Shown: one piece after another, positions 1,634 through 18,521 of the stretch
Position numbering within the stretch: the first letter of the stretch is position 1
Layout: every line of letters starts with the position of its first letter
Assembly (NCBI GenBank): GCA_016839445.1
Contig: JAEOUG010000042.1
Location: forward strand, 1 to 19,599
DNA from: Candidatus Thorarchaeota archaeon
Lineage (GTDB): Archaea > Asgardarchaeota > Thorarchaeia > Thorarchaeales > Thorarchaeaceae
DNA length: 19,599 bases
Reading direction: 5' to 3'
Program-made: the position numbers and the translations under genes
Notes under the pieces: model-generated
Told to the model about the DNA's origin: nothing
The model's input: only the letters and a program-made list of their open reading frames with translations
Database searches by the model: none

Positions 1634-1675
1634 GCTTTTCACCTGCAAGTATTGACCCCACCCCGTATTGAACGC

Positions 1676-4862: not shown

Positions 4863-5186
4863 TCATTTCATGGGCCTGAAGCGGAGCCGCTCAGCATCAT
4901 CAAGACTCAGCTCCACATTTGCCCCAATCTTCAAGTCAGGAAACGTCGTCTTCTCTTCGAGAAGACACAGTACCGTGGCATCCTGTTCTAGTCGCACTAG
5001 GGCCATCATGAGAGGGGGTTCAAATCCTTCCGGAGGCATGTGGAGCAGAGTGTAACTGAGGATCTCTCCGCGGGGAGATAGTTCTGTGGGCTCCATTGAG
5101 CCAGCTATTCCACAGTAGGGGCAGAGGTCCCTGGGAGGTACAACTACTCGTGAGCATTTGCTGCACGTGGAGGACTTGACCTTCAT
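4863..5186 (-). CDS. DUF35-family Zn-ribbon + OB-fold protein (thiolase/acyl-CoA-associated scaffold), about 107 aa
   Basis: CSKC...PPRDLCPYCG Zn ribbon, then LSPRGEILSYT..H.PPEGFEPP..MALVRL OB fold. ATG 5186 (MKVKSSTC) avoids the overlap with the giant gene that the 5267 start in the ORF track would need. Confidence 0.88.
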   Translation of the reverse strand: MKVKSSTCSKCSRVVVPPRDLCPYCGIAGSMEPTELSPRGEILSYTLLHMPPEGFEPPLMMALVRLEQDATVLCLLEEKTTFPDLKIGANVELSLDDAERLRFRPMK

Positions 5187-5218
5187 CTGCGACACAGCCA
5201 CAGAGAGAGCTTGAGTCG

Positions 5219-5241
5219 AGAAAAGAGTTCCGTAAGGACTC
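5219..5241 (-). terminator. Possible terminator after the giant gene (alternatively a promoter/operator of the DUF35 gene)
   Basis: The minus strand reads GAGTCC-ttac-GGAACTC followed by TTTTCT, starting 3 nt after the TGA at 5245. Confidence 0.35.
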
Positions 5242-5244
5242 CCC

Positions 5245-8200
5245 TCACGACTCACCTTCAGGGCCAATGAAGGACTCCAGCAGACTGATCAGTTCCTGCT
5301 TGCTCAGGCGCTTAAGCTCCTTGGCGCTTACGGTCGACTTGATGTCATCAGGTAGCAGATCCATTAGCTCGTTCTTGCTCAGCTCTGAGAGGGGTAGCTC
5401 CGTTGTAAGAGGTACCGAAGGTTCGGTCGGCAGAGGTCCACCCACATCCGGGAGCGGCTCCTCAGGAGGCACGTATGACTCTATGAGACCCTCAATCTCC
5501 TTCTTCGATAGCTTCTGCAAGTCAGCTTCCGGAATTGCCTCTCGAATCTCAGGAGGCATTGAATCGAGTAGCTCCTTCTTGGTCAAAGGCCTCTCCGGAG
5601 TAGGCTCGACCTCCACTTCATCGATTTCAGCGGTCTCCGCTTCCACCACTGTGACTTCTTCTGCTTCAGGCTCAGCATCCGCAGAGGGGAGTTCTTCCTC
5701 AACCACCTCAACCTCGGGCTCGATTACGGGCTCCTCCACAACCTCCTCGACAGGTTCGGCAGCCAAATCCTCAGTTGGTATCTCAGGCTCAGCAGCAAGC
5801 TCAGTGTCCTCAAGCAATGCCGCTTCGGACTCCGCAGCCTCGGGCTCGGAAACGACCTCGTCTACCTCATCAAGCCCAGTTTCCTCCTCGATCTCGGGAG
5901 TGATTGCCTCTTCGATGTCCTCTGCTTCATCGACTCCGACCATGTCTTCCTCCAACGAGACTTCTGGCTCAGCGGCGCCCAGACCTTCGGGCTCGACATC
6001 GAAGTCCAGTCCTCCAGGAACACTTGGTTTTCGTCGGCGAGCAACAACAACTATGCCACCGATGGCAACTACACCCACGACGGCCGTCAGAGCTATCGTC
6101 TCGATGGGCAGACCTACTGAGCCGCCGGGAGCAAACTCCACAACCACACTCTGGGCATTGAGGTTCAGAACTTGGATTCCGTGTTCGTTGTCCCAGATGC
6201 TATCGACTCTGAAGGTGTAGCTACCTGCAACAGACTTTACCACTGACGCGGTCCAATACCCTGCTGCGTTGTAGGTCATGCTATGCACCATTGAACCGTC
6301 GGTCAGGCGAACCTCACCGTCGGTCACCGCGGTCTCGTCAAACTCGTATACCATTGTGACACGAATCTCGACACTCTGCCCCGCATTCAGCGAATCAGTG
6401 GATGCGGTTGTTGTTTCAACCCTAACACGATCCCAGATGACAGTCACATCACTGACTGTCTGCACGAAGTTGTCAATGTTCTCGAGGGACGCAGAGATAA
6501 TGCCGAAGCTTGAGCTCGTCACAGTGCTCTCTGAGTGAGAGGCAATCAGAAAACCGGTAGAAGGCAGCAAACTGATACCTCCGGTCATCTGAGAGACAAT
6601 ACCAGCGGCTACCGGTATGCCTGCGTTCTCAAGCCGTACACTCCAATTGAGTGAGATAGTGTCACCGATGTTGACGTGTGCGTCGGAGACAGACACCGCG
6701 TAGAACTCAAGTCGGTCCCAGTAGAAAGTGACACTCTGACCATCCATGTTGTACTCTGTTATGCCGTGGAGTGTGGCGTCGCAGGTAGTCAGGTCATCAA
6801 GCATGAGGGACTGGTAGGAACTCCTTGAGATAGAGGCCTCCCATCTGCCTGTGCCTACATGGGCCAACGCCTCTCCTGCTATGCTGAAGGATCCTGCCAG
6901 AACCCATGTGCCGTCGTACTCGTACTGGAGTGTGACTGCAACAGTGCCCGACTCATCAGGGTCGAAGTAGAACAGGGTGGCGGAGATGGAGACTACGTGG
7001 ACGCGGTCCCATATGACCCACGTCACATCACTTGACTGTATTAGCGTGATTCCGTGGTAGTCACCTGAAAGCGAGGATGCAACATAGCCCTGCCTCTGTG
7101 GTGATGAGTACTGGAAGTCGGTGTTGTTCAGGGTGACTGTCCCATCGAAGGGTGCGCCATCAAAGGCATAGACAGCTGAGACAAGAATACCTGTTGCATT
7201 GAGCCCAACGTCGATGCGTTGATCCGCGGGATTGGTTATTGACACCACCACGGCATCCCATATGACGCTCTGTGTTGAAGTCAGGACCGTGTAGTTGGAG
7301 ATTCCGTAGGTCGACTCCAAGACAGACACGATATCGAAGAAGTCCTGCTGTACTGATGCACGAGACCCCGACCAGTGCCATCGGGCCTCAACTGAATCCC
7401 AGGTGAGGACCAGCGATCCGTTGATCTCAATGGTCACACCAGATGTAATTTCAGAACTATCGTAGACGTATCTGGCCCTCCACCAGACCTCGCCGACTGT
7501 GTTGACGTTGACTCGCGAGTCAACGGTCCCTGCCTGATAGACCTCCACTCTGTCAGTAATGAACGTGTCAGTGACACTCGCGCCGAAGAAGAGGTCAGAA
7601 GAGCCAGAGCCTGCACCTTCAATCACAATCTTGAATGTGTAGGTGTTGAGACGTACTACGAGCGATGAGGAGATAGACCCGACTGTGAAGTCCCCGGCCA
7701 CAAGATTACCCATCCAAGTGCCCGACACGTCATGGACAATCCATACGTCGGTCTCGTTGGCAAGTGGGGTTATGCTAGAGCCATAGTAGATTACTGAGCC
7801 CTGAGCGACTAGGTCGGTTGTGTTCACATCCCCTCGGTCATCGGACAGACTGGGAGTCGCGGAGTAATCCAGCCTTGTCTCGACATTCCAGCCGAGTGAG
7901 TAGGAGTCTGCATCAGAGTCGATGCCGTCTGTGACGAGTTGCTCCACGTAGCAGCCGGAAACATCCGGATGTGTCCAATCAATCTTGATCATCCAGACAA
8001 TCTCGAGAACATCGCCCGTGCCAGAAGCGTAGGAGGACGCTGAGATGGTGAGGAAGCTACCTCCGAGCTCAACACTGAATACTCCAGTTGCTCGCGTGTA
8101 TCGGAGAATCCAGATAACAGTGCTGTTGTCATCAGCAAGGAGGGTTAGCTCGACATAGCTGATGCTGAGGTACCCGTTTGCATCGCTCACGTTGCTAGTG

Positions 8201-11200
8201 AGCACGTAGTAGCGATAGCGAGCGTACATGTAGTCAGTATCGTCGGCGTTTGTCAGCACAGGAGTCGCTGTGTTGATCGGAACCTCGTTAGGAGCGGCAG
8301 ACCAGACGGCAAGTCTAGTATTGACAGTGAATGCTGTTATCCCGTAGGCCGTTTCAGATGTGATGATGCTCACCGTGTACTCATAGGCAACATCAGTACC
8401 CACATCGACGAAGAGTGAGAGATTAGTGTCCGTGAAGGAATGCCACCACGTGCTGTTTCGAATGACCACAACCTGATACGTAGAACAGACTGAGTCATCA
8501 TAGTCGAAGGTCACGGTGAGAGTGAAGTTGGCCTGAACTCCGTTTACGAGAGATGGGTCATCAACACCAACAGAGATGATGAGACGATCCCAGATTATGG
8601 TCTGAGAGAAGGCGTTCTGGTCAATGGCACTGATACCGTATGTGTTGCCAGAGGCACTCACTGCGTTGAATAGAGCGGATGACACTGAGGCATTCGACAC
8701 AGAGATGCGCCATAGACCACCACCCTGATGAGATGCCGCTTCACCATTGATCAGGACAGACCCTGTTGTGACGGGGGAACTGTCGTAGAGAGACACCAGT
8801 GTGACATCCAGATCCACTGTGTCTCCGATGTTCACACGACCATCAGAAACAGAAGAGGATTGGACCTGAATCTGGTCCCACACAATGGCCACGCTCTGCC
8901 CATTAAGGTCGAGGAGTGTGATGCCATGGACTGTACTGATGCTTGAATTGACGAAGTAGGCCCAAGCGCCAACTGACAACTGGCTGACCTGCAGCTCGAA
9001 CCAGGAGTTACCCGCATCCCAAGTCATCGCTGAACCATCAAGGGTCACTGAGTCTGCCGAACCAAGGAATGTGCCATCGTACTCGTGCCAGACTGTGACT
9101 CGCACTTCAGCACTGGTGCTAATGTCAATCCGAGAGTCATCCGCAACTGTGGTCTGCACAACTAGGCGGTCCCAGACAACCGCGACATTCTGGGAGTTAA
9201 GGTCTAGGGCGGTGATTCCGTAGGTCGAGTCAGCTGTTGCGTTCACGAAGTAGAGCCAACTGCCTACCGATGCCTGTGAAACCAGAAGCTCAAACCACGA
9301 GTTGCCTGCGTCATAGGTCATGAGTGAACCATCAAGAGCCACGCTGTCAGCTGCACCCAAGAGAGTGCTATCATAGGCGAGATACAGAGTCACTCTGATC
9401 TCCGCGTTGTCCCCAACGTTGACCCGATAGTCGTCAGCAGCTGTTGTCTGAACCACAATCTGGTCCCAGATGACCTCCACGAATATGCCATTCATGTCCA
9501 GCGCAGTGATTCCATATGTGGACTCAATCGATGAATTGACGAAGTATCTCCACAATCCGACAGAGGACTGCAGGGCACTGTACTCCCACCAGGAGTTGGC
9601 TCCGTCCCAAGACATGGCGCTGTCCTCGAGAGTGACTGTGTCTCCTGCTCCAAGGTATTCGTGATCGTATGCAAGCCAGAGAGTCACACGGATCTCTGTA
9701 GACGTGGTCACATCTACACGCCCATCGGTGACTGCTGTTGTCTGAACGACAATCTGATCCCAGATAACAGAAGCACTCATGCTGTTGACATCCAGACTCG
9801 TGATGCCGTAGGTTGCCTCGGAGCTGGAGTTGACGTAGAAAGCCTGTAGTCCAACATCTGAGAGGGATACAGCAAGCTCAAACCAGGAGTTGCCGAAGTC
9901 CCATGTCATTGATGTGCCGTTCAGAGAAACGGAGTCGCCCGATCCCAGGAATGAACTGTCATAGGCAAGCCAGAGAGTCACACGGATCTCCACGCTATCA
10001 CCGACGTTTGTTCTCGTATCGCTAGCCACGGTCGTCTGTACCACAATCTGATCCCAGATCACATCCTGACTCATGGCACTCTGGTCCACCTGAGAGAGGC
10101 CGTGAGTGCCACCCGAGTATGCAACCGTATCGTAAGTGACCAGCTGAACGCTGGACTTCATGTCAGTGAATCGCCAGACCCCTCCACCCTGATGAGTAGC
10201 GGAGAGTGTGTTGACAGTGACTGTGCCGTCAGTTACGGGGCTCGAGTCGTACTCGTATAGGAGCTCGACATCAATGGTAGCCGTGTCACCAATGTTGATT
10301 CGAGGATCAACGGCCGTGTATACTTGCACCTGAACTCTATCTGAGATGTAGCTGGACTGGGTTGCTGACTCCAGCAGACTCGTGCCACCGCTACCAGCGG
10401 ACTCCGCTACGGCCTTGATGGTTAGGTTGGCCAGAATGACCGAGTTGGCGGCGTAGGCGGTCAGACTGAACTGACCTGAGCTAAGTGTCAAGTCACTCCA
10501 CGGTCCGACATTTGTGCCGTAGGCGTCACTAGAGACCCAGACGTCAGTCTCGTTAGACAACGGGAAGTCGTCACCTGAGCCATAGTAGATCACTGTGCCA
10601 GATACAACGAAAGAGCCATCGAGAGGCCCTCTACCAGCAGTCCCTGAGCCATCATCGACCGTGAGTCCTGTTATCTCAAGCCGAGTCTCTACGTCCCAGT
10701 TGGACTCGTAGTAGTCCTCTACTCCGACTGTACCGTCATTCACGTACTGGTGCATGTCGACATCCACGAGATCTGGATGATCCCAGTCGACCTTGATGGC
10801 CCATGTGATGTCTAAGTCATTCCCGACCATGACAGCGGAACATGAGCCAAGAGCTATGTAGCTTGCTCCTGCCTGGATGCTGAAGGTTCCGCCAGCAACA
10901 GTGTATCTGACTGTCCAGAAAGCGAAGGTTCTAGCGTTATCGTACATGGAGAACTCCACGTATTCGATATCAGCATAGCCATCCGCGTCTGACACGTTGC
11001 TTGTGATGATATAGTATCTGTACCTGGCGTATAGATTGTCCGTGTCATCGGCGTTGATTAGCACGGGCTCCGCGTCGTTGACAGGTGCGATGTTGGCCGC
11101 TATGGACCAAGTCACCTGGCGGCTATTGGAAGTGAAGGCAGTCACACTGAACGTGCCTTCAGAAGTGACAATGGCCACCGTGTATGTGTAAGTCATATCT

Positions 11201-14200
11201 GAATTTGTGTCCACGAATCCTGATTTGTTGGAGTCCGTGAAGGAGTGCCACCATGTACCGTTACGGTACACCACAACCTGATAGGTTGTGCATGCGGCAT
11301 CGTCATAGTCGAAAATCACGGCCAGAGTGAAGTTGGCCTGGACTCCGTTTGTCGGTGACGGATTGTCCACACCAATAGTAATCACAAGCTGGTCCCAGAT
11401 GACGGACACGCTCTGGCCATTCTGATCGATGCTGGAGATTCCGTATGTGTTGCCAGCTGCAGAGACCGTGTTGTATAGGTTCCCAGTCACCGTTGATTCG
11501 GAGTCGGAAGCTCTCCAGACACCCAATCCTATGTGGGTTGCTGAAATGCCGTTCACGGTGACCGTGCCGTCGGTCACCGGGCTATCGTCGTAGTCATAGT
11601 ACAGTGTCACGTCGATGTTGACCGCATCGTTAATGCTAACGCGACTGTCTGAAACTGAGTAGCCCTGCACCTGAACCCTGTCCCAAATGACCTCCTGCGT
11701 CTGAGAGTTCTGGTTGACCGAGGTGATGCCAAGAGTGTTACCTGAGCACACGACAAGGTTGTAGGTGTTCATAGTGACAGCAGACTCGGTGTCAGTAATC
11801 CTCCAGACACCAGATCCCTGGTGAGATGCTGAGATGCCATTAATGGTAACAGAGCCATCTGTGACCGGAGCGTCATCGTACTCGTATTCTAGGGTCACTT
11901 CAATGGTGGCTGCATCATTGATGTTCACGCGCGCATCTGTGGCACTATAGGACCGGACCGCAATCTCATCCCAGACTACCTGCTGGCTCTGACCATTCTG
12001 ATCTACAGAGTCTATGCCGTGCAGGTTCCCGGAGGCAGCCACTGTGCTATAGGTGTTGGCCCAGACTGAGGCCTCTGTGTCACTGAACTGCCAGACACCA
12101 CCCGAGATGTGAGTGGCAGTCAGACCGTTCACTGTAACTGTGCCGTCGGTGATGGGGTTGTCATCATAGTCATAGATTAGTGTGACATTAACATCCACAC
12201 TTGCTCCGATGTTCACACGAGCATCTGCAACTGCGTAGCCCACAACCTGCACTCGATCAAAGATAACATCGACCGACTGGGAGTTCTGGTCGACTGCACT
12301 GATTCCATGCAAGTTGCCTGAACAGCTGACTAGATTGAATGTGACCAGCTGCACAGAACCACGAGTGGCCGTGATGTTCCATATACCAGACTGGAGATGC
12401 GTCGCGCTGTTGCCGTTGATGAGAACGGACCCATCGGTGACGGCTGCATCATCATAGTCATAGATCAGAGTCACGTTGACATCCACGTTGTCATTGATAC
12501 TAGTTCTAGTGTCAGAAACAGAATAAGACACAACGACTACCTGATCCCAAATGACATCCTGCGAAAGGGAGTTCTGGTCTACAACTGAGATGCCGTAGGT
12601 ATTGGCCGAGCAAGCAACCGTGTCATAAGTCACAAGTTGCACCGCAGCCTGCGAGTCTTGAATCCACCAGACTCCAGAGCCGAGGTGATTAGCAGCCTCG
12701 CCGTTGATTGTGACGACTCCGTTTGTCACAGGACTGTCATCATAGTCATAGTAGAGCATCACTTCGATGTTCACAGCTACGTTCACGTTGACTCGGTCAT
12801 CGACGACTGAGTAACCCTGGACCTGGACCCGGTCCCAGATGACCTGTTGAGTCTGCCCGTTCTGGTCAACTGCAGTGATACCGAGGGAGTTCCCAGAGCA
12901 GGCAACTGTATCGTAGGTGTTGGCAATCACTGAAGACTCGGAGTCACTAATCCTCCAGACACCGGACCCCTGATGGACTGCTGAGATTGTGTTAATGGTG
13001 ACAGACCCGTCTGTGACAGGTGAGTTGTCATAATCGTAGTAGAGGGTGACGTCCACATTCACTGAGTCACCGACATTGACCCGGTTGTCTAGAACCGTGT
13101 AGGACTGGACCTGAACACGGTCCCATATCACATCAGTTGATTGGCTGTTCTGGTCTACTGCGGTGATGCCAAAGGTATTGCCAGAGCAGGCGACTGTGTC
13201 GTAGGTGACAAGCTGAACAGAGCTCTGACTGTCCGTGGTCTGCCAGACACCTGAACCCACATGAGTCGCGGAGAGGCTGTTGATAGTAACAGATCCATCT
13301 GTGACAGGTGTGCTGTCGTAGACGTACAGAAGTGTGACGCTCACATCGACGTTGACATTGAGGCCGACTCTATTGTCAGTGGTAGAATAGGATTGAACCT
13401 GTATCTGATCCCAGATTACTGATACACTCTGGGAGTTGAGATTGAGAGCAGTGATACCGTAAGTGGCCTCGGTTGTTGAGTTCACGTAGTACAGCCAGAC
13501 ACCGACTGAGGCCTGTGAACGCGTAAGGTCGAACCAAGAATTGGTGCCATCCCAAGTCATGGCAACGCCATCCAGAGTGACAGAGTCGCCGGCTCCAAGG
13601 GGTGTACTATCGTATTCTAGGATGAGTGTGACCCTGATTTCTGCACTTGCGCTCACATCGACGCGGCCATCGTCGACAAGGGTGGTCTGGACAACGATTC
13701 TGTCCCAGATAACCGAAGTTAACTGCCCGTTCTGGTCGACGGAGGTGATGCCTTCAGTGTTTCCAGAGCAGGCAACTGTATTGTACGTAACCGACTGAAC
13801 TGTGCCTCGGGTCTGAACGACGCGCCAGACCCCCAGTCCTTGGTGGGTAGCGCTGAACCCATTAATGGTCAGACTGCCGTCAGTGACGGGTGTGCCATCA
13901 TAGGCGTACTCAACTGTGACATCCACGTTCACATTGGCGTCTACGTTGGCTCTTGCATCAGATACTGAATATGAGTCTACCAGCACCTGGTCCCAGACCA
14001 CTTGCTGGCTCTGCCCGTTTTGGTCGACAGAGGTGATGCCCTCTGTGTTTCCAGAGCAAGCTACAGTGTCATACGTGACTGATTGGACTGTGCTCTGACT
14101 CTGGACGATGCGCCAGACCCCCAATCCTTGGTGGGCAGCGCTGAACCCATTGATGGTCAGACTGCCATCAGTGACGGATGCGCTGTCATAGGCGTATTCG

Positions 14201-17106
14201 ACTGTTACATCAACGTTGACGCTGTCATCGATGTTCACCCTTGCGTCTGCGACCGTGTAGCCAGTGACAAGAACCTGATCCCAGATTACTTCCTGACTCT
14301 GGCTGTTCTGGTTCACCGAAGTGATTCCATGGGTGTTCCCACTCGCCGCCACGAGATTATATGTCACTGCGGTGACAGAGGCCTGAGAGGGAGAGATTCT
14401 CCAGACGCCAGATCCTTGATGGGCTGCCGAGATAGTGTTTATCGTTACAGTGCCGTCGGTCACTGGGGCGTCGTCGTAATCGTATATCAGTGTGACATCG
14501 ACATTAACGCTGTTCCCCACATTGACGCGGTCGTCAGCAACCGAGTAGGAAACGACCAACACCTGGTCCCAGATGACCTGCTGTGATTGCCCGTTCTGAT
14601 CAACCAGAGAGATTCCGTGGGTTCCACCCGAGTAAGCAACTGTGTCGTAGGTGTTTGCCATGACTGTAGATTCCGACTCTGTGATTCTCCAGACGCCGCT
14701 TCCTTGGTGTGTGGCTGCGGCTGAGTTGATAGTGACCGTGCCGTCTGTGACTGGGCTGTCGTCGTAATCATAATAGAGGGTCACATCGACATTGACATTG
14801 GCATTGATGTCTACTCTGGCATCAACGACGGAGTATGACTGAATCTGCACTTGGTCGGCGATGTAAGTGTCAGTTGTGCTTGTGGTGTAGTACAGGTCGG
14901 TGCCGCCGGACCCTGCCCCTTCCTCGACAACTGTGACTGTGTAAGTGTCCTCTCCAACAACATCGTCTGCATAGCAGGTGACCGAGAATTGGCCAGAGGT
15001 CAAGGTGAGATCGGACCATGGTCCTACTGACGTTCCATACTCTGGTGCTGAAACCCAAACATCAACACTCGCCGAGTCTGGAAAATCGTCACCAGAACCG
15101 TAGTAGATGATGGTGCCTGTGATTGTGAAAGAGCCATCGAGGTCGCCTCTGTCGAGAGTGCCTGAGCCGTCGCTGATGCTTGGTGCAACGGAGTAGTCAA
15201 GCCGGGTCTCTGTGTCCCAATTAACCTCATACCATGTTGTTGATGATTCTGTCTGTGTATCCACAACGTAGACTCTTGCGTCTAGGTCGGTCGAGTCTGG
15301 AAAGTCCCAGTCAATCGTGAAGTAGAATGTTGCATCAATATCATTCCCGCTCTCTGTCGCGGTCGAGCTTCCCGTGTTCAGGGCGACATAAGTTCCTGCG
15401 TCGTATTCCTCAGTGAAAGAGTTCGTGTCCTCGTCATACCTGAACCTACAATACTCGGTGCTCTGTGCGTTATCCCATATGGAAACTTCAAGGTAGTCAA
15501 TGTCAGCAAACCCATTCTGGTCAGAAACATAGGCTGTGACCTGGTACTCCACGTACTGAGCGTACATGTTGTCAGTGTCAGTCGGATTGTCCAGAGTGGG
15601 GGCCTGGTCGCTTGCAGGTGCGTAGCTGGGAGTCCAGACGTGAATCAGTACAGCGTCGATCTCCCACGTGTTTTGTGTAGTGTCGCCGGTTTCAGTCCCT
15701 CCGACAAATCGTATCTCAAAGGAGGAGCCAGTGAGATAGCTAGTAATGCTGACGTTATTCCACTGATCAGGTGCAAGGTCGGAGATGACGTTTGTCCATG
15801 CACCATTCCAGACATCGACCTTGATGTCCTCCGCGGGCCAACCGCCACCGGTCACCGGATAGATACATAGTTCCTCATTGGTCTCGTCATAGTCCGCGCT
15901 TGTCCAACCCACTTCTAGGTCCAACTCGTAGTTGTCGGAGCCAGCCGTCCACACGTGGAGCAGGACTCCCTCTATCTCCCAAGTCTCCTGCGCAGTCGAC
16001 TCGTCACTTGTGTCTGTGAACCGAATCTCCAAGGCAGTGCCAGTGAGATAGGAACTCACTGATACATTGTTCCAGCCGGCAGCGACATCTGCTATCACAT
16101 TCTGCCACTGAGAACCATCCCAGACATCTACTCTAAGGGCCTCGGTGCCCTGAGTGCCTCCGTAGATGCAGAGTTCCTCATTGGATTCATCGAAGTCAGC
16201 TGCGGTCCAGCCGACCTCCAGATCAAGATCGTAGTTTGTCGTGCCAGCCTGGTACACATCAAGGTAGGCAGCATCGACCCAGTTGGTCGTAGGCGCTCCT
16301 CCGCCCTTCGTCATCGTGAACCTCACCCGACATGCATCAATCTCAGCTACGGTGTCAAGTCCACTGACCGTACCGGTGTTGTACCATGCACCTGCAGGGT
16401 CCGTGAATGAGCCACTAGCATCAGCGGTGCCATCGCTTGTCCAGTCCAGCTCCCACGCAATATCATCGTCATCTGCTTGACCACAGTATACATAGAGAAC
16501 CACTGTGAACGTTCCGGAGGAACCTGTTGTGGCGCCAAAACCATACCAACCTGAGACTGCTCCGTTGCTTGCTGTTGAGATGTAGCTGGTGGGGTAGTCC
16601 TGAGCGTCAAGATAGGGAGAGGTTCCGGTCTGAGTCCAAGTGACAGGTGTCGGTGCAGTGTCGACGTACAAGTCCTCGGCAATTTCGGGAGAGCCTGTGT
16701 CACCTTCCGTCAGGGTGTCGTAGACAGAATCGGTGTCCTGCATCTCTGCGAAGTTGCTGTGAGTTCCCACATCGGTTGGCGCATGAAGGTTTGATTGCTG
16801 GTCAACATAGTCCTCCAGATTGAATCCGGACGTGCCCGTATTGCCCTCGGTCATCTGGTCATAGTTGACTCCATAGTCCTGAAGGTCGGCAAATACGCTA
16901 TGCGTCCCTATGTCTGTGGGAGCATGCAGATTGGAGAGCTGCTGTACAAAGCTCTCAGTATTATCCCCTATGCCAGACACCGAGAATGAATCTCCGTCGG
17001 CAATCTGAATCGGGGTTGCCTCTGGCACTCTCATGTCTGGGGAAGGAGCAATCATCATTCCAAATAGCGCCAGGAAAAGTATCAGGGAAAGCACATCTCT
17101 TCTCAT
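5245..17106 (-). CDS. Giant cell-surface glycoprotein/adhesin, 3953 aa, type-I membrane topology
   Basis: Uninterrupted 11.86-kb ORF. N-terminal signal/anchor MRRDVLSLILFLALFGMMIA with SD-like AGGGTG upstream. About 30 beta-rich repeat modules and many NxS/T sequons. C-terminal TM IALTAVVGVVAIGGIVVVA followed by RRRK and a 264-aa tail. Confidence 0.93.
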   Translation of the reverse strand: MRRDVLSLILFLALFGMMIAPSPDMRVPEATPIQIADGDSFSVSGIGDNTESFVQQLSNLHAPTDIGTHSVFADLQDYGVNYDQMTEGNTGTSGFNLEDYVDQQSNLHAPTDVGTHSNFAEMQDTDSVYDTLTEGDTGSPEIAEDLYVDTAPTPVTWTQTGTSPYLDAQDYPTSYISTASNGAVSGWYGFGATTGSSGTFTVVLYVYCGQADDDDIAWELDWTSDGTADASGSFTDPAGAWYNTGTVSGLDTVAEIDACRVRFTMTKGGGAPTTNWVDAAYLDVYQAGTTNYDLDLEVGWTAADFDESNEELCIYGGTQGTEALRVDVWDGSQWQNVIADVAAGWNNVSVSSYLTGTALEIRFTDTSDESTAQETWEIEGVLLHVWTAGSDNYELDLEVGWTSADYDETNEELCIYPVTGGGWPAEDIKVDVWNGAWTNVISDLAPDQWNNVSITSYLTGSSFEIRFVGGTETGDTTQNTWEIDAVLIHVWTPSYAPASDQAPTLDNPTDTDNMYAQYVEYQVTAYVSDQNGFADIDYLEVSIWDNAQSTEYCRFRYDEDTNSFTEEYDAGTYVALNTGSSTATESGNDIDATFYFTIDWDFPDSTDLDARVYVVDTQTESSTTWYEVNWDTETRLDYSVAPSISDGSGTLDRGDLDGSFTITGTIIYYGSGDDFPDSASVDVWVSAPEYGTSVGPWSDLTLTSGQFSVTCYADDVVGEDTYTVTVVEEGAGSGGTDLYYTTSTTDTYIADQVQIQSYSVVDARVDINANVNVDVTLYYDYDDSPVTDGTVTINSAAATHQGSGVWRITESESTVMANTYDTVAYSGGTHGISLVDQNGQSQQVIWDQVLVVSYSVADDRVNVGNSVNVDVTLIYDYDDAPVTDGTVTINTISAAHQGSGVWRISPSQASVTAVTYNLVAASGNTHGITSVNQNSQSQEVIWDQVLVTGYTVADARVNIDDSVNVDVTVEYAYDSASVTDGSLTINGFSAAHQGLGVWRIVQSQSTVQSVTYDTVACSGNTEGITSVDQNGQSQQVVWDQVLVDSYSVSDARANVDANVNVDVTVEYAYDGTPVTDGSLTINGFSATHQGLGVWRVVQTRGTVQSVTYNTVACSGNTEGITSVDQNGQLTSVIWDRIVVQTTLVDDGRVDVSASAEIRVTLILEYDSTPLGAGDSVTLDGVAMTWDGTNSWFDLTRSQASVGVWLYYVNSTTEATYGITALNLNSQSVSVIWDQIQVQSYSTTDNRVGLNVNVDVSVTLLYVYDSTPVTDGSVTINSLSATHVGSGVWQTTDSQSSVQLVTYDTVACSGNTFGITAVDQNSQSTDVIWDRVQVQSYTVLDNRVNVGDSVNVDVTLYYDYDNSPVTDGSVTINTISAVHQGSGVWRISDSESSVIANTYDTVACSGNSLGITAVDQNGQTQQVIWDRVQVQGYSVVDDRVNVNVAVNIEVMLYYDYDDSPVTNGVVTINGEAANHLGSGVWWIQDSQAAVQLVTYDTVACSANTYGISVVDQNSLSQDVIWDQVVVVSYSVSDTRTSINDNVDVNVTLIYDYDDAAVTDGSVLINGNSATHLQSGIWNITATRGSVQLVTFNLVSCSGNLHGISAVDQNSQSVDVIFDRVQVVGYAVADARVNIGASVDVNVTLIYDYDDNPITDGTVTVNGLTATHISGGVWQFSDTEASVWANTYSTVAASGNLHGIDSVDQNGQSQQVVWDEIAVRSYSATDARVNINDAATIEVTLEYEYDDAPVTDGSVTINGISASHQGSGVWRITDTESAVTMNTYNLVVCSGNTLGITSVNQNSQTQEVIWDRVQVQGYSVSDSRVSINDAVNIDVTLYYDYDDSPVTDGTVTVNGISATHIGLGVWRASDSESTVTGNLYNTVSAAGNTYGISSIDQNGQSVSVIWDQLVITIGVDNPSPTNGVQANFTLAVIFDYDDAACTTYQVVVYRNGTWWHSFTDSNKSGFVDTNSDMTYTYTVAIVTSEGTFSVTAFTSNSRQVTWSIAANIAPVNDAEPVLINADDTDNLYARYRYYIITSNVSDADGYADIEYVEFSMYDNARTFAFWTVRYTVAGGTFSIQAGASYIALGSCSAVMVGNDLDITWAIKVDWDHPDLVDVDMHQYVNDGTVGVEDYYESNWDVETRLEITGLTVDDGSGTAGRGPLDGSFVVSGTVIYYGSGDDFPLSNETDVWVSSDAYGTNVGPWSDLTLSSGQFSLTAYAANSVILANLTIKAVAESAGSGGTSLLESATQSSYISDRVQVQVYTAVDPRINIGDTATIDVELLYEYDSSPVTDGTVTVNTLSATHQGGGVWRFTDMKSSVQLVTYDTVAYSGGTHGLSQVDQSAMSQDVIWDQIVVQTTVASDTRTNVGDSVEIRVTLWLAYDSSFLGSGDSVSLNGTSMTWDFGNSWFELAVSLSDVGLQAFYVNSSSEATYGITSLDVNSMSASVIWDQIVVQTTAVTDGRVDVTTSTEIRVTLWLAYDHEYLGAGDTVTLEDSAMSWDGANSWWEYSALQSSVGLWRYFVNSSIESTYGITALDMNGIFVEVIWDQIVVQTTAADDYRVNVGDNAEIRVTLYLAYDSTLLGAADSVALDGSLMTYDAGNSWFELLVSQASVGSWLYFVNATADSTYGITALDLNSQNVAVVWDRLVVQTTVADDSRIDISTSAEVRVTVWHEYDGTFLGSADSVTLDGSAMTWDAGNSWFELQVSQLSVGAWAYFVNSSISTVHGITLLDLNGQSVAIVWDQIQVQSSSVSDGRVNIGDTVDLDVTLVSLYDSSPVTTGSVLINGEAASHQGGGLWRISVSNASVSSALFNAVSASGNTYGISAIDQNAFSQTIIWDRLIISVGVDDPSLVNGVQANFTLTVTFDYDDSVCSTYQVVVIRNSTWWHSFTDTNLSLFVDVGTDVAYEYTVSIITSETAYGITAFTVNTRLAVWSAAPNEVPINTATPVLTNADDTDYMYARYRYYVLTSNVSDANGYLSISYVELTLLADDNSTVIWILRYTRATGVFSVELGGSFLTISASSYASGTGDVLEIVWMIKIDWTHPDVSGCYVEQLVTDGIDSDADSYSLGWNVETRLDYSATPSLSDDRGDVNTTDLVAQGSVIYYGSSITPLANETDVWIVHDVSGTWMGNLVAGDFTVGSISSSLVVRLNTYTFKIVIEGAGSGSSDLFFGASVTDTFITDRVEVYQAGTVDSRVNVNTVGEVWWRARYVYDSSEITSGVTIEINGSLVLTWDSVEARWHWSGSRASVQQDFFDIVSVLESTYGISNYTVLTSTQSVIWDAVVVSITNPADQRIDVGLNATGILVSAVYAFDGAPFDGTVTLNNTDFQYSSPQRQGYVASSLSGDYHGITLIQSSDVTWVIWDRVHVVSISATLFYFDPDESGTVAVTLQYEYDGTWVLAGSFSIAGEALAHVGTGRWEASISRSSYQSLMLDDLTTCDATLHGITEYNMDGQSVTFYWDRLEFYAVSVSDAHVNIGDTISLNWSVRLENAGIPVAAGIVSQMTGGISLLPSTGFLIASHSESTVTSSSFGIISASLENIDNFVQTVSDVTVIWDRVRVETTTASTDSLNAGQSVEIRVTMVYEFDETAVTDGEVRLTDGSMVHSMTYNAAGYWTASVVKSVAGSYTFRVDSIWDNEHGIQVLNLNAQSVVVEFAPGGSVGLPIETIALTAVVGVVAIGGIVVVARRRKPSVPGGLDFDVEPEGLGAAEPEVSLEEDMVGVDEAEDIEEAITPEIEEETGLDEVDEVVSEPEAAESEAALLEDTELAAEPEIPTEDLAAEPVEEVVEEPVIEPEVEVVEEELPSADAEPEAEEVTVVEAETAEIDEVEVEPTPERPLTKKELLDSMPPEIREAIPEADLQKLSKKEIEGLIESYVPPEEPLPDVGGPLPTEPSVPLTTELPLSELSKNELMDLLPDDIKSTVSAKELKRLSKQELISLLESFIGPEGES
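5269..5586 (-). repeat. Two 38-aa helical repeats at the C-terminus of the giant protein (5473-5586 and 5269-5382)
   Basis: LTKKELLDSMPPEIREAIPEADLQKLSKKEIEGLIESY versus LSKNELMDLLPDDIKSTVSAKELKRLSKQELISLLESF: 15/38 identical with no gaps, separated by a Pro-rich linker. Confidence 0.85.
6028..6096 (-). other. C-terminal transmembrane helix plus positive-inside stop-transfer of the giant protein
   Basis: aa 3671-3689 IALTAVVGVVAIGGIVVVA, then RRRK (aa 3690-3693). Confidence 0.9.
6133..7554 (-). repeat. Membrane-proximal block of five divergent Ig-like repeats
   Basis: Most units keep the frame D[RA]V..., Y[EVA][YF]D, HG/YGI, and V[IF]W/YW-D junctions, but vary in length and are far more diverged than the distal blocks. 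Confidence 0.75.
8590..10341 (-). repeat. Block of six Ig-like repeats (A-B-B-B-B-A; A = 96 aa, B = 98 aa)
   Basis: B consensus DQIVVQTT..DxRV....EIRVTL.L.YD...LG..DSV.LDG..M.WD..NSWFEL..SQ.SVG.W.YFVNS..E.TYGIT.LD.N....VIW. The spacing sums exactly to 584 codons. Confidence 0.9.
11395..14856 (-). repeat. Block of twelve tandem Ig-like repeats (A4-B-A7; 288-nt period for A units)
   Basis: A consensus D[QR]V.V.SYSV.DxRVN....VNVDVTL.YDYDD.PVTDG.VTIN..SA.HQGSGVWRI..S.S.V...TY.TVACSGNT.GI..VDQN.QSQ.VIW. The spacing sums exactly to 11x96+98 = 1154 codons. Confidence 0.93.
15631..16956 (-). repeat. N-terminal tip of the giant protein: two 41-aa repeats, a unique core of about 144 aa, then two repeats of about 100 aa
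   Basis: Short repeats at aa 51-91 and 98-138 (SNLHAPTD.GTHS.FA..QD....YD..TEG.TG, 26/41 identical). Long repeats at aa 291-387 and 392-492 (NY.LDLEVGWT.AD.DE.NEELCIY...WNNVS..SYLTG...EIRF...TWEI..VL.HVWT). Confidence 0.9.
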
Positions 17107-17339: not shown

Positions 17340-18521
17340 CTATTCTGCCCCCAGAATCGTGACCACGATGTTGTTGCCGAAGCCACCGATATTGTGTGCT
17401 AGACCAATCCGTGGAGACTGCGTCTGCAACCCAGGCGGAGCTTCTCCCCTCAGCTGCAAAACGATGTCTCGAATCTGTGCAACGCCTGTGGCACCAGTCG
17501 GGTGGCCTCGTGCCTTTATCCCACCAGATGGATTGACTGGAATCTCACCAGAGACCTCCAGCGACCCCTTCTTCACGAGATCAATGGAAGCTCCTCTTGG
17601 AGCAAGCCCCAGGTCTTCCACATTCACTAGTTCCAGAATCGAGAAGGCATCATGCACTTCACATACATCTACGTCTGCAGGTCCTATGCCAGCCATTTGA
17701 TAGGCGCGCTCAGACGCTCTGACTGTGGCACTCAAGGACGTCAGTGAGTGTCTGTGTTGAACTGCAAAATAGTCGGTGGCATGACCGATGCCCAAAACCT
17801 GAATCGCATCTCTCGGGACATCCACATTCCTAGCGAGATCGTCTGACGTAATGACAACTGCTGCGGCTCCGTCCGACGTTGGGCTGCAATCGTACAGTGT
17901 GAGTGGGTCCGCGACGACTCGTGAGGAGCACACCTCTTCAATGGTAATCTCCTTCTGGAAGTGTGCGAGTGGGTTCTTCGCGCCATTCCTGTGTGCTTTC
18001 ACCGGTATCAGTGAGAGCTCGTCCCGAGTCAATCCGTAGTCGTGCATATAACGTCGAGCAATCATGGCTGCTAAAGCAGTAGGAGTCGCACCGTACCGCG
18101 CTTCATCTTCGAAGGATATCATCTTTGAGAGAATTCGTGAGGCCTGTCCTCTGTCAACTTCAGACATCTTCTCGACGCCCACCACAAGAACAGCTTCGGC
18201 TGCTCCTGAAGCAACCATGTTGAATCCTGCCTCAACTGCGCTCGCTCCCGAGGAGGGTCCTGTTTCGACACGCGTGGCTCCCGCAGGAACTAGGCCCAGC
18301 CTATCCGCGAGGTGCGTGGAAACGTGTCCTCGCTGGGTGAACTCGTCAGGGTTCTGGCAACCCACACACACGTGGTCTATGGCCCCCGAAGCGAGAGCCG
18401 CATCAGTCATGGCCTCAAAGGCGGCTTGGGCTGCTAGGTCAACGAGAGAGTCTGCTAGGACTCCGAATCTCGTCATCCCAACGCCAATAATGTTGACCGG
18501 CCTCAAGGGGTGCATCCTCAC
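17340..18521 (-). CDS. Thiolase-fold protein (archaeal SCP2/SCP-x type) lacking the nucleophilic Cys, about 391-393 aa
   Basis: Motifs IIGVGMTRFG, KAHRNGAKNPLAH, DCSPTSDGAAA, EVHDAF, VNPSGGIKARGHPTGATG and AHNIGG. The ExACASG motif reads ETGPSSG. The start is GTG 18521 (GTGA overlap with the upstream stop) or ATG 18515. It ends in a double stop TAG TAA. Confidence 0.92.
   Translation of the reverse strand: MRMHPLRPVNIIGVGMTRFGVLADSLVDLAAQAAFEAMTDAALASGAIDHVCVGCQNPDEFTQRGHVSTHLADRLGLVPAGATRVETGPSSGASAVEAGFNMVASGAAEAVLVVGVEKMSEVDRGQASRILSKMISFEDEARYGATPTALAAMIARRYMHDYGLTRDELSLIPVKAHRNGAKNPLAHFQKEITIEEVCSSRVVADPLTLYDCSPTSDGAAAVVITSDDLARNVDVPRDAIQVLGIGHATDYFAVQHRHSLTSLSATVRASERAYQMAGIGPADVDVCEVHDAFSILELVNVEDLGLAPRGASIDLVKKGSLEVSGEIPVNPSGGIKARGHPTGATGVAQIRDIVLQLRGEAPPGLQTQSPRIGLAHNIGGFGNNIVVTILGAE

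What the first reader, a model, noticed from the sequence alone, without database searches (positions are those of the whole stretch)
5245..17106. 3953-aa single-pass receptor-like surface protein with a real cytoplasmic domain
Seen: signal peptide, about 3650 aa of extracellular repeats, one TM helix + RRRK, and 264 further residues. Established: most archaeal S-layer and adhesin proteins stop a few residues after the C-terminal TM (e.g. PGF-CTERM/archaeosortase substrates). No PGF-type sorting motif precedes this TM. Inference: the layout (distal binding tip, long acidic beta-sandwich rod, TM, disordered tail with terminal interaction modules) parallels cadherin/Ig-type adhesion receptors and could couple outside contact to an inside partner. 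About 30 domains at a few nm each would give a filament on the order of 100 nm.
Basis: partly seen in the sequence, partly recalled or inferred. Interest (0 to 1): 0.8.

Follow-up and report, generated by a model that had tools for sequence, protein, structure and literature searches.

The report
Giant Asgard surface fibre with docking tail
A 3953-residue membrane-anchored surface fibre of a Thorarchaeota-type (Asgard) archaeon carries a conserved tail on the inner side of the membrane, so it may link outside contacts to the cell interior.

Summary
Window 5245-17106 (-) is one 3953-aa ORF with a signal-like start, a 3641-aa ectodomain, one TM helix followed by RRRK, and 264 further residues.

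What the parts look like:
- The family is Asgard: 23 of 31 related loci are titled Thorarchaeota.
- The stalk repeat folds as tandem Ig-like domains (pLDDT 97.6; FdeC Z 11.6).
- The N-terminal tip resembles carbohydrate-binding jelly rolls (pLDDT 74; CBM86 Z 11.3).

The tail is real:
- All 21 loci with a complete C-end have TM, basic residues and 106-486 further residues.
- In 10 orthologues the last 48 residues are 65% identical on average, against 35% for the acidic linker.
- This ~40-aa end module is rare: 35 hits in 1.84 billion representatives.
- It is homologous to the repeated module of a soluble HEAT-repeat protein found in 19 of 19 genus genomes (hhalign 92%).

It is not a PGF-CTERM/archaeosortase substrate, although 8 of 11 orthologues carry PGF before the TM.

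No binding partner and no outside-in coupling is shown. I rate it a new variant of a known kind, interest 0.62.

The parts
17035..17106 (-). Signal-peptide-like N-terminus, residues 1-24 (MRRD followed by a hydrophobic run)
   Evidence: Hydropathy scan. Orthologues start the same way.
16690..17034 (-). Residues 25-139: two copies of a ~45-aa unit (46-95 and 94-139, 61% identical)
   Evidence: Self-BLAST. pLDDT is mostly 26-85 in the model; the first 24 model residues are below 50.
15622..16689 (-). Distal tip, residues 140-495. One ~150-aa domain plus two ~100-aa domains (291-394 and 395-495, 61% identical); jelly-roll, CBM-like beta sandwiches.
   Evidence: AF2 on alignment A5: pLDDT 74, pTM 0.52. 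VIA wide: CBM86 6sgf Z 11.3, rmsd 3.3 over 122 residues; CBM29 Z 10.1; CBM32 Z 8.9. Foldseek: reelin repeats E 2.7e-8.
14842..15621 (-). Super-module head, copy 1 (residues 496-755)
   Evidence: Self-BLAST: copies at 2007-2260 (50% identity, E 1e-72) and 2942-3189 (37%, E 4e-40).
11380..14841 (-). Stalk block 1: 12 tandem ~96-aa Ig-like repeats (residues 756-1909)
   Evidence: AF2 of three repeats: pLDDT 97.6, pTM 0.85. FdeC 4e9l Z 11.6, invasin Z 9.8, titin Z 8.9. Foldseek FdeC E 7.5e-8.
11092..11379 (-). Cap domain 1 (residues 1910-2005)
   Evidence: Second copy at 2845-2940: 64% identity, E 4e-40.
10327..11091 (-). Super-module head, copy 2 (residues 2006-2260)
8575..10326 (-). Stalk block 2: 6 Ig-like repeats (residues 2261-2844)
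8287..8574 (-). Cap domain 2 (residues 2845-2940)
7540..8286 (-). Super-module head, copy 3 (residues 2941-3189)
6130..7539 (-). Stalk block 3: 5 divergent Ig-like repeats next to the membrane (residues 3190-3659)
6040..6111 (-). Single transmembrane helix (residues ~3666-3689), preceded by APGG
   Evidence: Hydropathy peak 2.74. Context.
6028..6039 (-). RRRK positive-inside cluster (residues 3690-3693)
   Evidence: The orthologues read RRRR, RRRK, RRRH or RRGK at this place.
5587..6027 (-). Acidic, Pro-rich linker (residues 3694-3840); variable in sequence and length between orthologues
   Evidence: Over the 214 residues before the last 48: D+E 0.34, P 0.13. Mean pairwise identity 0.35. Linker lengths in orthologues 118-278 residues.
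5452..5586 (-). Tail-end module, copy 1 (residues 3841-3885)
   Evidence: Iterated HMM, E 2.7e-15.
5263..5382 (-). Tail-end module, copy 2, at the C-terminus (residues 3909-3948). Pattern: L-[ST]-K-x-E-L .. [LI]-P-x-x-I-[KR] .. E-L-[KR]-R-L-[ST]-K-x-E-L-I-S-L.
   Evidence: Iterated HMM, E 1.2e-14. Conserved in 9 orthologous loci. hhalign to the HEAT-protein module: 92%, E 6.6e-7.

Best explanation
This is a giant type I membrane-anchored surface fibre of a Thorarchaeota-type Asgard archaeon.

Shown:
- It is one ORF with a signal-like start.
- It has a tip of CBM-like jelly-roll domains.
- It has a stalk of about 30 Ig-like domains in three super-modules.
- It has one TM helix followed by RRRK.
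- Its tail is an acidic, Pro-rich, poorly conserved spacer that ends in two copies of a ~40-aa module.
- That module is conserved in orthologues. In this genome it otherwise occurs only as the three-fold repeat of a soluble HEAT-repeat/Lys-rich protein.

Inferred:
- The ectodomain is exported by Sec, and the tail stays in the cytoplasm (positive-inside rule; sequons only in the ectodomain).
- The rod stands roughly 110-150 nm off a cell that, like cultured Asgard archaea, probably lacks an ordered S-layer.
- The tip binds a glycan or another surface ligand on particles or partner cells.
- The spacer presents the end module as a docking site for a cytoplasmic partner. The partner would be either the HEAT-repeat protein itself (homotypic module pairing) or a third protein that recognises the module in both.
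- Docking would hold, cluster or position the foot of the fibre. It could possibly report load.
For: Architecture.

Topology: 0 versus 4 basic residues on the two flanks of the TM; 30 versus 0 sequons in ectodomain versus tail.

Folds: stalk; tip.

Taxon: 23 of 31 loci are titled Thorarchaeota, 3 Promethearchaeota and 1 Hermodarchaeota.

Tail conservation:
- 6 of 6 full-length proteins have TM, basic residues and a 192-354-aa tail.
- 21 of 21 loci with a complete C-end have tails of 106-486 aa.
- The end module averages 0.65 pairwise identity, against 0.35 for the linker and 0.61 for the last 300 ectodomain residues (45 pairs).

Module specificity:
- 35 hits at E<=1e-3 in 1.84e9 representatives. 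They are the ends of giant proteins, tails of other TM proteins, and ~400-530-aa HEAT_2 proteins.
- In the own genome the module occurs only in this protein (2 copies) and the HEAT protein (3 copies).
- hhalign probability is 92%.
- The module was found in 20 of 201 genomes of the phylum sample, all in one family.
- The HEAT protein is full length in 19 of 19 genus genomes.

Vertical inheritance: the gene sits in conserved synteny in 9 of 9 loci with the same tail type.

Context from papers, passages only: a cultured Lokiarchaeon has no ordered S-layer but has complex surface proteins (PMC9834061).
Against: - No partner is shown. The complex prediction could not be run.
- Sharing a module with the HEAT protein shows homology, not binding.
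- The module matches no known family. The best Pfam and PDB sequence hits are noise-level: UBM E 0.057, sigma-E region 4 E 0.31.
- Topology rests on hydropathy and the positive-inside rule only; no dedicated predictor was available.
- The tip model has moderate confidence (pLDDT 74, 12 sequences). Z values of 8-11 to CBMs show a fold, not a ligand.
- Only 6 of 15 genomes of the own genus in the phylum sample (5 of 14 others plus the window's own) showed the module at E<=1e-6. This may reflect fragmented MAGs.
- Sister paralogues carry quite different tails, so the ectodomain does not need this particular module.
Confidence: 0.55

Rival explanations
1. Passive anchor. The protein is simply a long adhesin or spacer held by its TM. 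The acidic tail is a stop-transfer and solubility element. The end module serves biogenesis, such as holding the C-terminus for a chaperone, the insertion machinery or turnover. It does not couple the fibre to a structural or signalling partner.
For: The linker is conserved only in composition. Paralogues with the same ectodomain repeats use unrelated tails. No known interaction or signalling domain is found in any tail.
Against: The last 48 residues are as conserved as the folded ectodomain (0.65 versus 0.61). The same module is repeated 3-4 times in a soluble, genus-wide HEAT protein that needs no membrane insertion. Many other large secreted proteins of this genome make do with tails of 0-30 residues.
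Confidence: 0.2
2. Processed sorting signal. The PGF-like motif, TM and Arg cluster are recognised by an archaeosortase-like enzyme. The enzyme cuts the ectodomain free for lipid anchoring or release and leaves or discards the tail.
For: 8 of 11 close orthologues read PGF directly before the TM, followed by a Gly-rich helix and RRR[RK]. Weak PGF_CTERM hits occur in 4 of the 10 segments scanned, 8.8-14.5 bits.
Against: - The scores are below the 24.5-bit cut-off and align only the helix-plus-Arg part.
- This protein reads APGG.
- 166-326 conserved residues follow, instead of the C-terminus.
- PF09721 is found in 0 of 19 genus genomes, own genome included.
- TIGR04125 is not found in the own genome, which is 89.8% complete, while the control rings in Haloferax and Methanosarcina.
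Confidence: 0.05
3. Membrane-tethered signal. Contact or load on the fibre triggers cleavage near the membrane. The released tail, with its end modules, then acts in the cytoplasm or on DNA, in Notch-like or anti-sigma-like logic.
For: - Another giant of the same genome (contig C35, 3071 aa) has TM, RRRR and a ~90-aa tail with weak winged-helix hits: MarR_2 E 0.0019, HTH_24 E 0.006, both below cut-off.
- The best PDB sequence hit of the module is sigma-E region 4, at E 0.31.
- An Rce1-like membrane protease gene lies next to the HEAT-protein gene in the own genome and in 4 of 4 genus loci looked at.
Against: All similarities are below significance. The module lacks a third, recognition helix. 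The tail is strongly acidic, which does not suit DNA binding. No cleavage site or protease link is shown.
Confidence: 0.1
4. Assembly artefact: the ORF is a chimera, or its repeat number is wrong.
For: No public contig spans the gene. Two odd joints within repeats were seen in one run. The genome bin has 6.45% estimated contamination.
Against: - Repeats are at most 75% identical at the DNA level, with no exact repeated word of 31 nt or more.
- Pieces at least 99% identical occur in 4 runs of 4 studies.
- Full-length orthologues of 3357-4195 aa lie in the same synteny in other MAGs.
- GC matches the genome.
Confidence: 0.03

Closest known systems
Bacterial giant Ig-like-repeat adhesins (FdeC/invasin/intimin family; SiiE; MpIBP region II)
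   Same: Long rod of tandem ~95-100-aa Ig-like beta sandwiches with a different binding region at the far end. These are the best structural matches of the stalk model: FdeC Z 11.6, invasin Z 9.8, InvE Z 9.4, SiiE Z 7.3. Conserved Asp residues sit at the repeat borders, as in Ca-stiffened adhesins; the comparison with Ca-stiffened adhesins is recalled, and no Ca site was tested.
   Different: No sequence relation: no Pfam Big family and no PDB sequence hit. Those proteins are exported by type 1 or type 5 systems and held in an outer membrane (recalled). Here there is a Sec-type signal, one C-terminal TM and a long conserved inner tail, in an archaeon with a single membrane.
Eukaryotic type I adhesion receptors (classical cadherins, Ig-CAMs)
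   Same: The layout: signal peptide, tandem beta-sandwich ectodomain, one TM, basic juxtamembrane residues, and an acidic, poorly ordered tail with a conserved docking element. The cadherin tail binds an alpha-solenoid (armadillo) adaptor (recalled textbook knowledge). Here the module is shared with an alpha-solenoid (HEAT) protein.
   Different: No homology: no Cadherin, Cadherin_C or Ig-family Pfam match. The partner is unknown. The module is confined to one archaeal family in the sample searched. This is analogy only.
Archaeal PGF-CTERM / archaeosortase A substrates and S-layer glycoproteins
   Same: Signal peptide, large glycoprotein-like ectodomain with sequons, C-terminal TM with an Arg cluster, and a PGF tripeptide in 8 of 11 orthologues.
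   Different: The TM is not at the C-terminus. The PGF_CTERM model scores below its cut-off. No archaeosortase was found. No S-layer family is matched.
Giant proteins of Asgard archaea listed by Wu et al. 2022 (PMC8813620; passages and the legend of Extended Data Fig. 7 seen, figure and supplements not)
   Same: Proteins of more than 3000 aa are noted as common in Asgard genomes, with tandem giant genes in Thorarchaeota.
   Different: Those discussed in the passages seen belong to mobile elements ('Aloposons'). This gene lies in conserved chromosomal synteny between thiolase and DUF35 genes. The passages I saw say nothing of TM-plus-tail layout or tail modules. Whether this family is among those in the figure could not be checked.

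Membership tests
PGF-CTERM sorting domain (TIGR04126) / archaeosortase A substrate | Match to the PGF_CTERM model above its cut-off (24.5 bits) | tested here: not met
   Window segment: 14.5 bits, E 0.02, aligned to model positions 9-27 only. Among 9 orthologue segments, 3 hit at 8.8-14.4 bits and 6 did not hit.
PGF-CTERM sorting domain (TIGR04126) / archaeosortase A substrate | The domain ends the protein (TM plus a few basic residues at the extreme C-terminus) | tested here: not met
   264 residues follow the TM here. 106-486 residues follow in 21 of 21 loci with a complete C-end.
PGF-CTERM sorting domain (TIGR04126) / archaeosortase A substrate | An archaeosortase gene in the same genome | tested here: not met
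   PF09721: 0 hits in the own genome (89.8% complete) and in 0 of 18 other genus genomes. TIGR04125: 0 hits in the own genome, with the control ringing in Haloferax and Methanosarcina. Not found in those searched; incompleteness applies.
Bacterial Ig-like (Big / invasin-intimin) domain repeats | Ig-like beta-sandwich fold in tandem array | tested here: met
   AF2 pLDDT 97.6. FdeC Z 11.6 over 256 residues; invasin Z 9.8. Foldseek E 7.5e-8.
Bacterial Ig-like (Big / invasin-intimin) domain repeats | Sequence match to a Big-type Pfam family | tested here: not met
   No Pfam family at E<=1 other than three unrelated sub-threshold hits. Profile A3 against PDB sequences: best E 0.4.
Cadherin superfamily | Cadherin repeat and cadherin cytoplasmic (catenin-binding) region, by sequence | tested here: not met
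   No Cadherin or Cadherin_C hit in the Pfam scan of the whole protein or of the tail end.
Carbohydrate-binding module-like jelly roll (tip) | Jelly-roll beta-sandwich fold like CBM families | tested here: met
   CBM86 Z 11.3 (rmsd 3.3, 122 aligned), CBM29 Z 10.1, CBM32 Z 8.9. Model pLDDT is only 74.
Carbohydrate-binding module-like jelly roll (tip) | Ligand-binding residues or measured glycan binding | not testable with these tools
   No sequence match to a CBM family. The best PDB sequence hit is a fucose-binding lectin at E 0.0047 over 48 residues, which is not significant.
Archaeal S-layer protein families | Sequence match to a described S-layer family | tested here: not met
   None in Pfam or NCBIfam. 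Lattice formation cannot be tested here.
Tail-end module shared with the Thorarchaeota HEAT-repeat protein (undescribed family) | Profile-level homology between the tail end and the repeated unit of the HEAT protein | tested here: met
   hhalign 92%, E 6.6e-7, 43 columns. Iterated HMM: E 1e-14 to 1e-15 in the tail and 6e-10 to 5e-9 in the HEAT protein, with no other ORF of the genome hit.

The most novel reading that the evidence does not exclude
Thorarchaeota may have an adhesion-receptor system of their own, built on cadherin-catenin-like logic. In this reading, ~100-nm Ig-like fibres with glycan-binding tips cross the membrane once. They present, on an acidic flexible tail, a two-helix module that docks to a conserved HEAT-repeat/Lys-rich adaptor carrying 3-4 copies of the same module. 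Contacts with partner cells or particles would then be clustered and tied to the cell interior, for example to the membrane-microdomain proteins encoded beside the adaptor gene or to the actin cytoskeleton.
Probability: 0.15. Interest if true: 0.9.

Novelty: new variant of a known kind. Interest (0 to 1): 0.62.

Why it matters
Cultured Asgard archaea lack an ordered S-layer and carry 'complex surface proteins'. These are thought to mediate the cell-cell contacts central to models of eukaryote origin (PMC9834061, passages). What those proteins are, and whether they connect to the cytoplasm, is open.

This locus offers a concrete, conserved candidate:
- a giant type I fibre;
- a defined 40-aa inner module;
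- a named candidate companion, the HEAT-repeat protein found in 19 of 19 genus genomes.

The question 'do Asgard surface fibres talk to the inside?' can therefore be tested with a peptide pull-down, a structure prediction and cryo-ET. Prokaryotic surface proteins with long, conserved, modular cytoplasmic tails are uncommon; that statement rests on my own knowledge. Here at least three tail types are swapped on one ectodomain family.

Five full-text searches found no description of this family, its tail or the module. Supplements and subscription journals could not be searched.

Tried and rejected
Nothing was folded, so there is no result either way.
- The search of earlier findings was not open.
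- The ESM Atlas on the tip gave only unnamed clusters: score 0.93, recognition 1730, which is below the level that known families usually reach.
- Expression: no RNA holder was listed among 20 runs of 7 studies, so nothing can be said on expression.
- Read laying gave only short contigs. Parts without cover and two odd joints within repeats in run X4 are not interpretable.
- Pfam on the tail module is noise-level and inconsistent. The typed 114-aa tail end gave UBM E 0.057, PYRIN E 0.024 and YqbF_HeH E 0.07. Of the 11 rows of A2, 6 hit KIP1, 6 hit S_100 and 2 hit Rho_N.
- I considered a ubiquitin-binding (UBM-like) reading because of the Leu-Pro core (recalled). I dropped it. The hit is sub-threshold, and no ubiquitin (PF00240) or E2 (PF00179) was found in the own genome. 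Those two searches rang in no control genome, so they are weak.
- PDB sequence searches with the tail (A2), stalk (A3) and tip (A5) profiles gave nothing significant.
- Pfam on the other tail types and on tails of other giants of this genome gave nothing above cut-off.
The same profile was then built from window and locus references.
Full report
**1. The observation**

One search lists a single ORF at 5245..17106 on the minus strand, 3953 aa, with an ATG start. One search translates it without an internal stop (P0001).

A hydropathy scan finds exactly two hydrophobic segments. The first is residues 1-24, a signal-peptide-like start after MRRD. The second is 3662-3691. RRRK follows at 3690-3693, and 264 residues (3690-3953) come after the helix.

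The flank before the helix has no basic residue and the flank after it has four. The 3641-aa part between the two segments has 30 N-x-S/T sequons and is rich in S/T/N/Q (31%) and aromatics (10%). The tail has no sequon, 31% D+E, 11% P and 1% aromatics. By the positive-inside rule (established knowledge) this is a type I protein with the tail in the cytoplasm. That is an inference; no dedicated topology predictor was at hand.

**2. Anatomy of the outside part**

Self-comparison and an HMM of the ~96-aa unit (23 copies; 24) give the following order:
- two 45-aa units (46-139);
- a ~150-aa domain (140-290);
- two ~100-aa domains (291-495);
- three super-modules, each made of a ~255-aa head (496, 2006, 2941) followed by 12, 6 and 5 repeats;
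- a 96-aa cap after each of the first two repeat blocks.

Neither Pfam nor NCBIfam matches anything above cut-off.

*Stalk.* Three consecutive repeats were folded with a 117-row alignment drawn from the window and related loci. The model has pLDDT 97.6 and pTM 0.85 and is all-beta. Its best structural matches are tandem Ig-like rods:
- FdeC: Z 11.6, Foldseek E 7.5e-8;
- invasin: Z 9.8;
- InvE: Z 9.4;
- phage Hoc: Z 9.0;
- titin: Z 8.9.

There is no sequence-level relative in the PDB.

*Tip.* Residues 25-500 were folded with only 12 sequences, giving pLDDT 74. The best matches are carbohydrate-binding jelly rolls:
- CBM86: Z 11.3, rmsd 3.3 over 122 residues;
- CBM29: Z 10.1;
- CBM32: Z 8.9.

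Foldseek finds reelin repeats, E 2.7e-8. This is a fold-level lead to a binding tip, not proof of a ligand.

*Length.* About 34 beta-sandwich domains at 3.3-4.4 nm each would give roughly 110-150 nm. The per-domain figures are recalled from titin and SiiE, and the length is an inference.

**3. Whose gene it is**

A scan of species-representative genomes with the alignment of six full-length proteins returned 31 loci:
- 23 titled Candidatus Thorarchaeota;
- 3 Promethearchaeota;
- 1 Hermodarchaeota;
- 2 'uncultured archaeon';
- 2 from one MAG titled 'uncultured Ignavibacteria bacterium', most simply a binning error.

The own genome is 2.91 Mb in 190 contigs, 89.8% complete, with 6.45% contamination. 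It encodes an actin at E 3.4e-132. Gene GC (0.532) matches the genome (0.526 +/- 0.008).

I compared the flanks of 13 loci. The 9 that share this tail type all have the DUF35-type OB/zinc-ribbon gene directly downstream, and 8 also have the acyl-CoA dehydrogenase. The 5 with upstream sequence have thiolase, biotin carrier and carboxylase genes upstream, all on the same strand. The 4 loci with other tail types share none of these flanks. The gene is thus an old, vertically inherited resident of this chromosomal site, not a mobile insertion.

**4. The tail is conserved and modular**

The first search, restricted to residues 3640-3953, found 5 homologues of 3664-4230 aa among 1922 candidates scored. 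All 6 proteins, this one included, have one C-terminal TM, basic residues and a tail of 192-354 aa with 25-36% D+E.

The 31 loci break down as follows:
- 7 end before the TM;
- 3 run off the contig inside the tail;
- 21 have complete C-ends, and all 21 carry TM, basic residues and 106-486 further residues.

Three tail types are seen among those 21 loci:
- 9 loci, plus the window, have an acidic linker and the end module.
- 8 have a ~106-113-aa helical tail of another kind.
- 4 have 279-486-aa tails with a conserved juxtamembrane block and several module-like units.

None of the tails matches a Pfam family above cut-off.

Among the 10 orthologues of the first type (45 pairs), mean pairwise identity is:
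- 0.65 for the last 48 residues;
- 0.61 for the last 300 ectodomain residues;
- 0.61 for the TM;
- 0.35 for the linker.

The linker keeps only its composition (D+E 0.24-0.41, P 0.11-0.20) and varies from 118 to 278 residues. In short, the tail is a variable spacer that presents a conserved end. The window's protein has two copies of the module (3841-3885 and 3909-3948).

**5. The end module elsewhere**

A profile of 11 copies (A2) was scored against 1.84 billion representatives. It found 35 proteins at E<=1e-3, of which 15 were at E<=1e-10. They fall into three groups:
- C-ends of giant proteins;
- tails of other membrane proteins, one of which also carries a helix-hairpin-helix domain;
- soluble proteins of ~400-530 aa with an N-terminal HEAT_2 domain (4 of 4 scanned), Lys-rich stretches and 3-4 module copies.

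In the own genome an iterated HMM finds the module in only two ORFs. This protein has 2 copies (E 1e-14 to 1e-15). A HEAT protein on contig C116 has 3 copies (E 6e-10 to 5e-9). Profile-profile comparison gives 92% probability, E 6.6e-7.

The HEAT protein is present at full length in 19 of 19 genomes of the genus, own genome included. It is present in part in the one same-order genome. Elsewhere only its HEAT region finds matches. Its gene lies between an Rce1-like protease gene and a vWA gene, beside NfeD and SPFH genes. NfeD, Rce1-like and vWA flank it in 4 of 4 genus loci looked at; SPFH was seen only in the own genome.

In a sample of 201 genomes of the phylum, the module was found in 20. 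All 20 are in one family (19 of 43, plus the own genome), and none is among the 157 genomes of 26 other families. There it sits at the ends of ORFs of 1315-3848 aa and in the HEAT proteins. It is therefore a lineage-specific inner module used on several giant surface proteins and on one soluble protein.

**6. What it most likely does**

Shown: the architecture, the folds, the conservation pattern, and the shared module.

Inferred, at about 55% confidence:
- The fibre is exported by Sec and anchored by its TM.
- Its CBM-like tip binds a ligand outside.
- The flexible acidic spacer presents the end module to a cytoplasmic partner that holds, clusters or positions the foot of the fibre.
- The partner is either the HEAT/Lys-rich protein, by pairing of like modules, or a third protein that reads the module in both.

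Sharing a module does not show binding. The prediction meant to test this could not be run.

Rivals:
- A passive anchor whose module serves biogenesis: 0.2.
- A released signalling tail: 0.1. It is hinted at only by weak winged-helix hits in the tail of another giant of this genome and a non-significant sigma region 4 match.
- An archaeosortase-type sorting signal: 0.05.
- Misassembly: 0.03.

**7. The PGF question**

This protein reads APGG, but 8 of 11 close orthologues read PGF directly before a Gly-rich helix and RRR[RK]. Even so, four points argue against a PGF-CTERM signal:
- The PGF_CTERM model scores 8.8-14.5 bits against a cut-off of 24.5, and it aligns only the helix-plus-Arg part.
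- The segment is not C-terminal.
- PF09721 is found in 0 of 19 genus genomes.
- TIGR04125 is not found in the own genome, while it rings in Haloferax and Methanosarcina.

The anchor may descend from, or converge on, such a signal. It does not qualify as one.

**8. Comparison with what is known, and novelty**

It works like the giant Ig-like-repeat adhesins of bacteria on the outside. In layout it is like eukaryotic type I adhesion receptors. It is a member of neither; see the membership tests.

From papers I saw passages only:
- A cultured Lokiarchaeon has no ordered S-layer but has complex surface proteins (PMC9834061; also the review PMC12993045).
- Giant proteins of more than 3000 aa are noted across Asgard genomes, some in mobile elements (PMC8813620).
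- Integrin-like Asgard families of another kind have been reported (PMC9258230).
- A Loki/Thor metagenome paper has no passage on cell surfaces among the terms searched (PMC6737245).

Five full-text searches found no description of this family, its tails or the module. Supplementary tables, which I could not open, may list the gene.

I rate it a new variant of a known kind. The fibre itself is familiar. The conserved, swappable cytoplasmic tails, and a docking-type module shared with a conserved HEAT protein in an Asgard lineage, are not.

**9. Limits**

- No expression data were found.
- No contig of another assembly spans the gene. However, repeats are at most 75% identical at the DNA level, with no exact repeated word of 31 nt or more.
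- The tip model is of moderate confidence.
- Topology and function are inferred.

Noticed in passing
window 4863-5267 (-), 17340-18521 (-), 18518-19042 (-), 19042-19599 (-): The giant gene is wedged, on the same strand, between a thiolase gene and the DUF35-type OB/zinc-ribbon gene. By my own knowledge these two usually sit side by side. Its stop region overlaps the DUF35 ORF start (5245-5267). The order carboxylase, biotin carrier, thiolase, giant, DUF35, acyl-CoA dehydrogenase recurs in Thorarchaeota loci.
   Followed up: partly
window 1775-3553 (+): A 592-aa protein with hydrophobic N-terminal segments and no Pfam match. It is conserved at this place, on the opposite strand, in 8 of the 9 syntenic loci. 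Function unknown.
   Followed up: partly
window 749-1648 (-): A cytoplasmic-looking vWA-domain protein (VWA E 6e-12) that is not part of the conserved neighbourhood (no match in the 13 loci). Another, highly conserved vWA gene lies beside the HEAT-protein gene on contig C116.
   Followed up: partly
L005, L008, L009, L012, L013, L014, L017, L033 (just before the TM): A PGF tripeptide precedes the TM in 8 of 11 close orthologues, but not in the window's protein, L007 (SGF) or L016 (APF). This may be a relic of, or convergence on, a PGF-CTERM-like anchor.
   Followed up: yes
own genome, contig C35 (3071-aa ORF; tail fetched as L040): Another giant secreted protein with TM, RRRR and a ~90-aa tail. 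The tail gives weak winged-helix hits (MarR_2 E 0.0019, HTH_24 E 0.006; both below cut-off). It may be a membrane-tethered DNA-binding tail.
   Followed up: partly
own genome, contig C14 (tandem ORFs of 2634 and 2585 aa; tails L041, L042): Two neighbouring giant genes with 178- and 180-aa tails. Their ends recall the last helix of the module (an L-[ST]-K-A-[ED]-[IL]-D-A-L-L-D pattern), but they were not hit by the module HMM at E<=1e-3. In relatives the module does end tandem ORFs of ~2240-2480 aa.
   Followed up: partly
own genome, survey of 89 ORFs of 800 aa or more: Many large secreted proteins end 0-30 residues after their last hydrophobic segment. A subset, this one included, has more than 100 further residues. 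Long inner tails are a recurring trait of this genome.
   Followed up: partly
L010 and L021: Two contigs of one MAG titled 'uncultured Ignavibacteria bacterium' encode members of this otherwise Asgard family at 38-39% identity. This is probably a binning error rather than gene transfer.
   Followed up: no
L020, L026-L031, L034, L035; L015, L018, L019, L025, L032: Paralogues with the same Ig-like repeats carry two other conserved tail types. One is a ~110-aa helical tail. The other is a 280-490-aa tail with a conserved juxtamembrane block that also occurs in other TM proteins (P0026, P0031, P0032). Single MAGs hold two types, for example MP5_2600 with L009 and L029.
   Followed up: partly
own genome, contig C116, 1155-5722: The gene order is SPFH/Band 7, NfeD, Rce1-like CAAX protease, HEAT/module protein, vWA (convergent). 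NfeD, Rce1-like and vWA flank the HEAT gene in 4 of 4 genus loci looked at. The HEAT gene most likely starts at a TTG that has a GGAGG-like stretch a few bases upstream.
   Followed up: partly
window 9031-9361 and 11584-14748: In one public run (X4) two contig joints fall within the repeat blocks. They may be repeat-number variants in the population or unitig artefacts.
   Followed up: no
window 5267-6220 (+): A 317-aa antisense ORF lies over the tail-coding region. It is most likely a by-product of the biased composition of the acidic tail. It was not examined.
   Followed up: no
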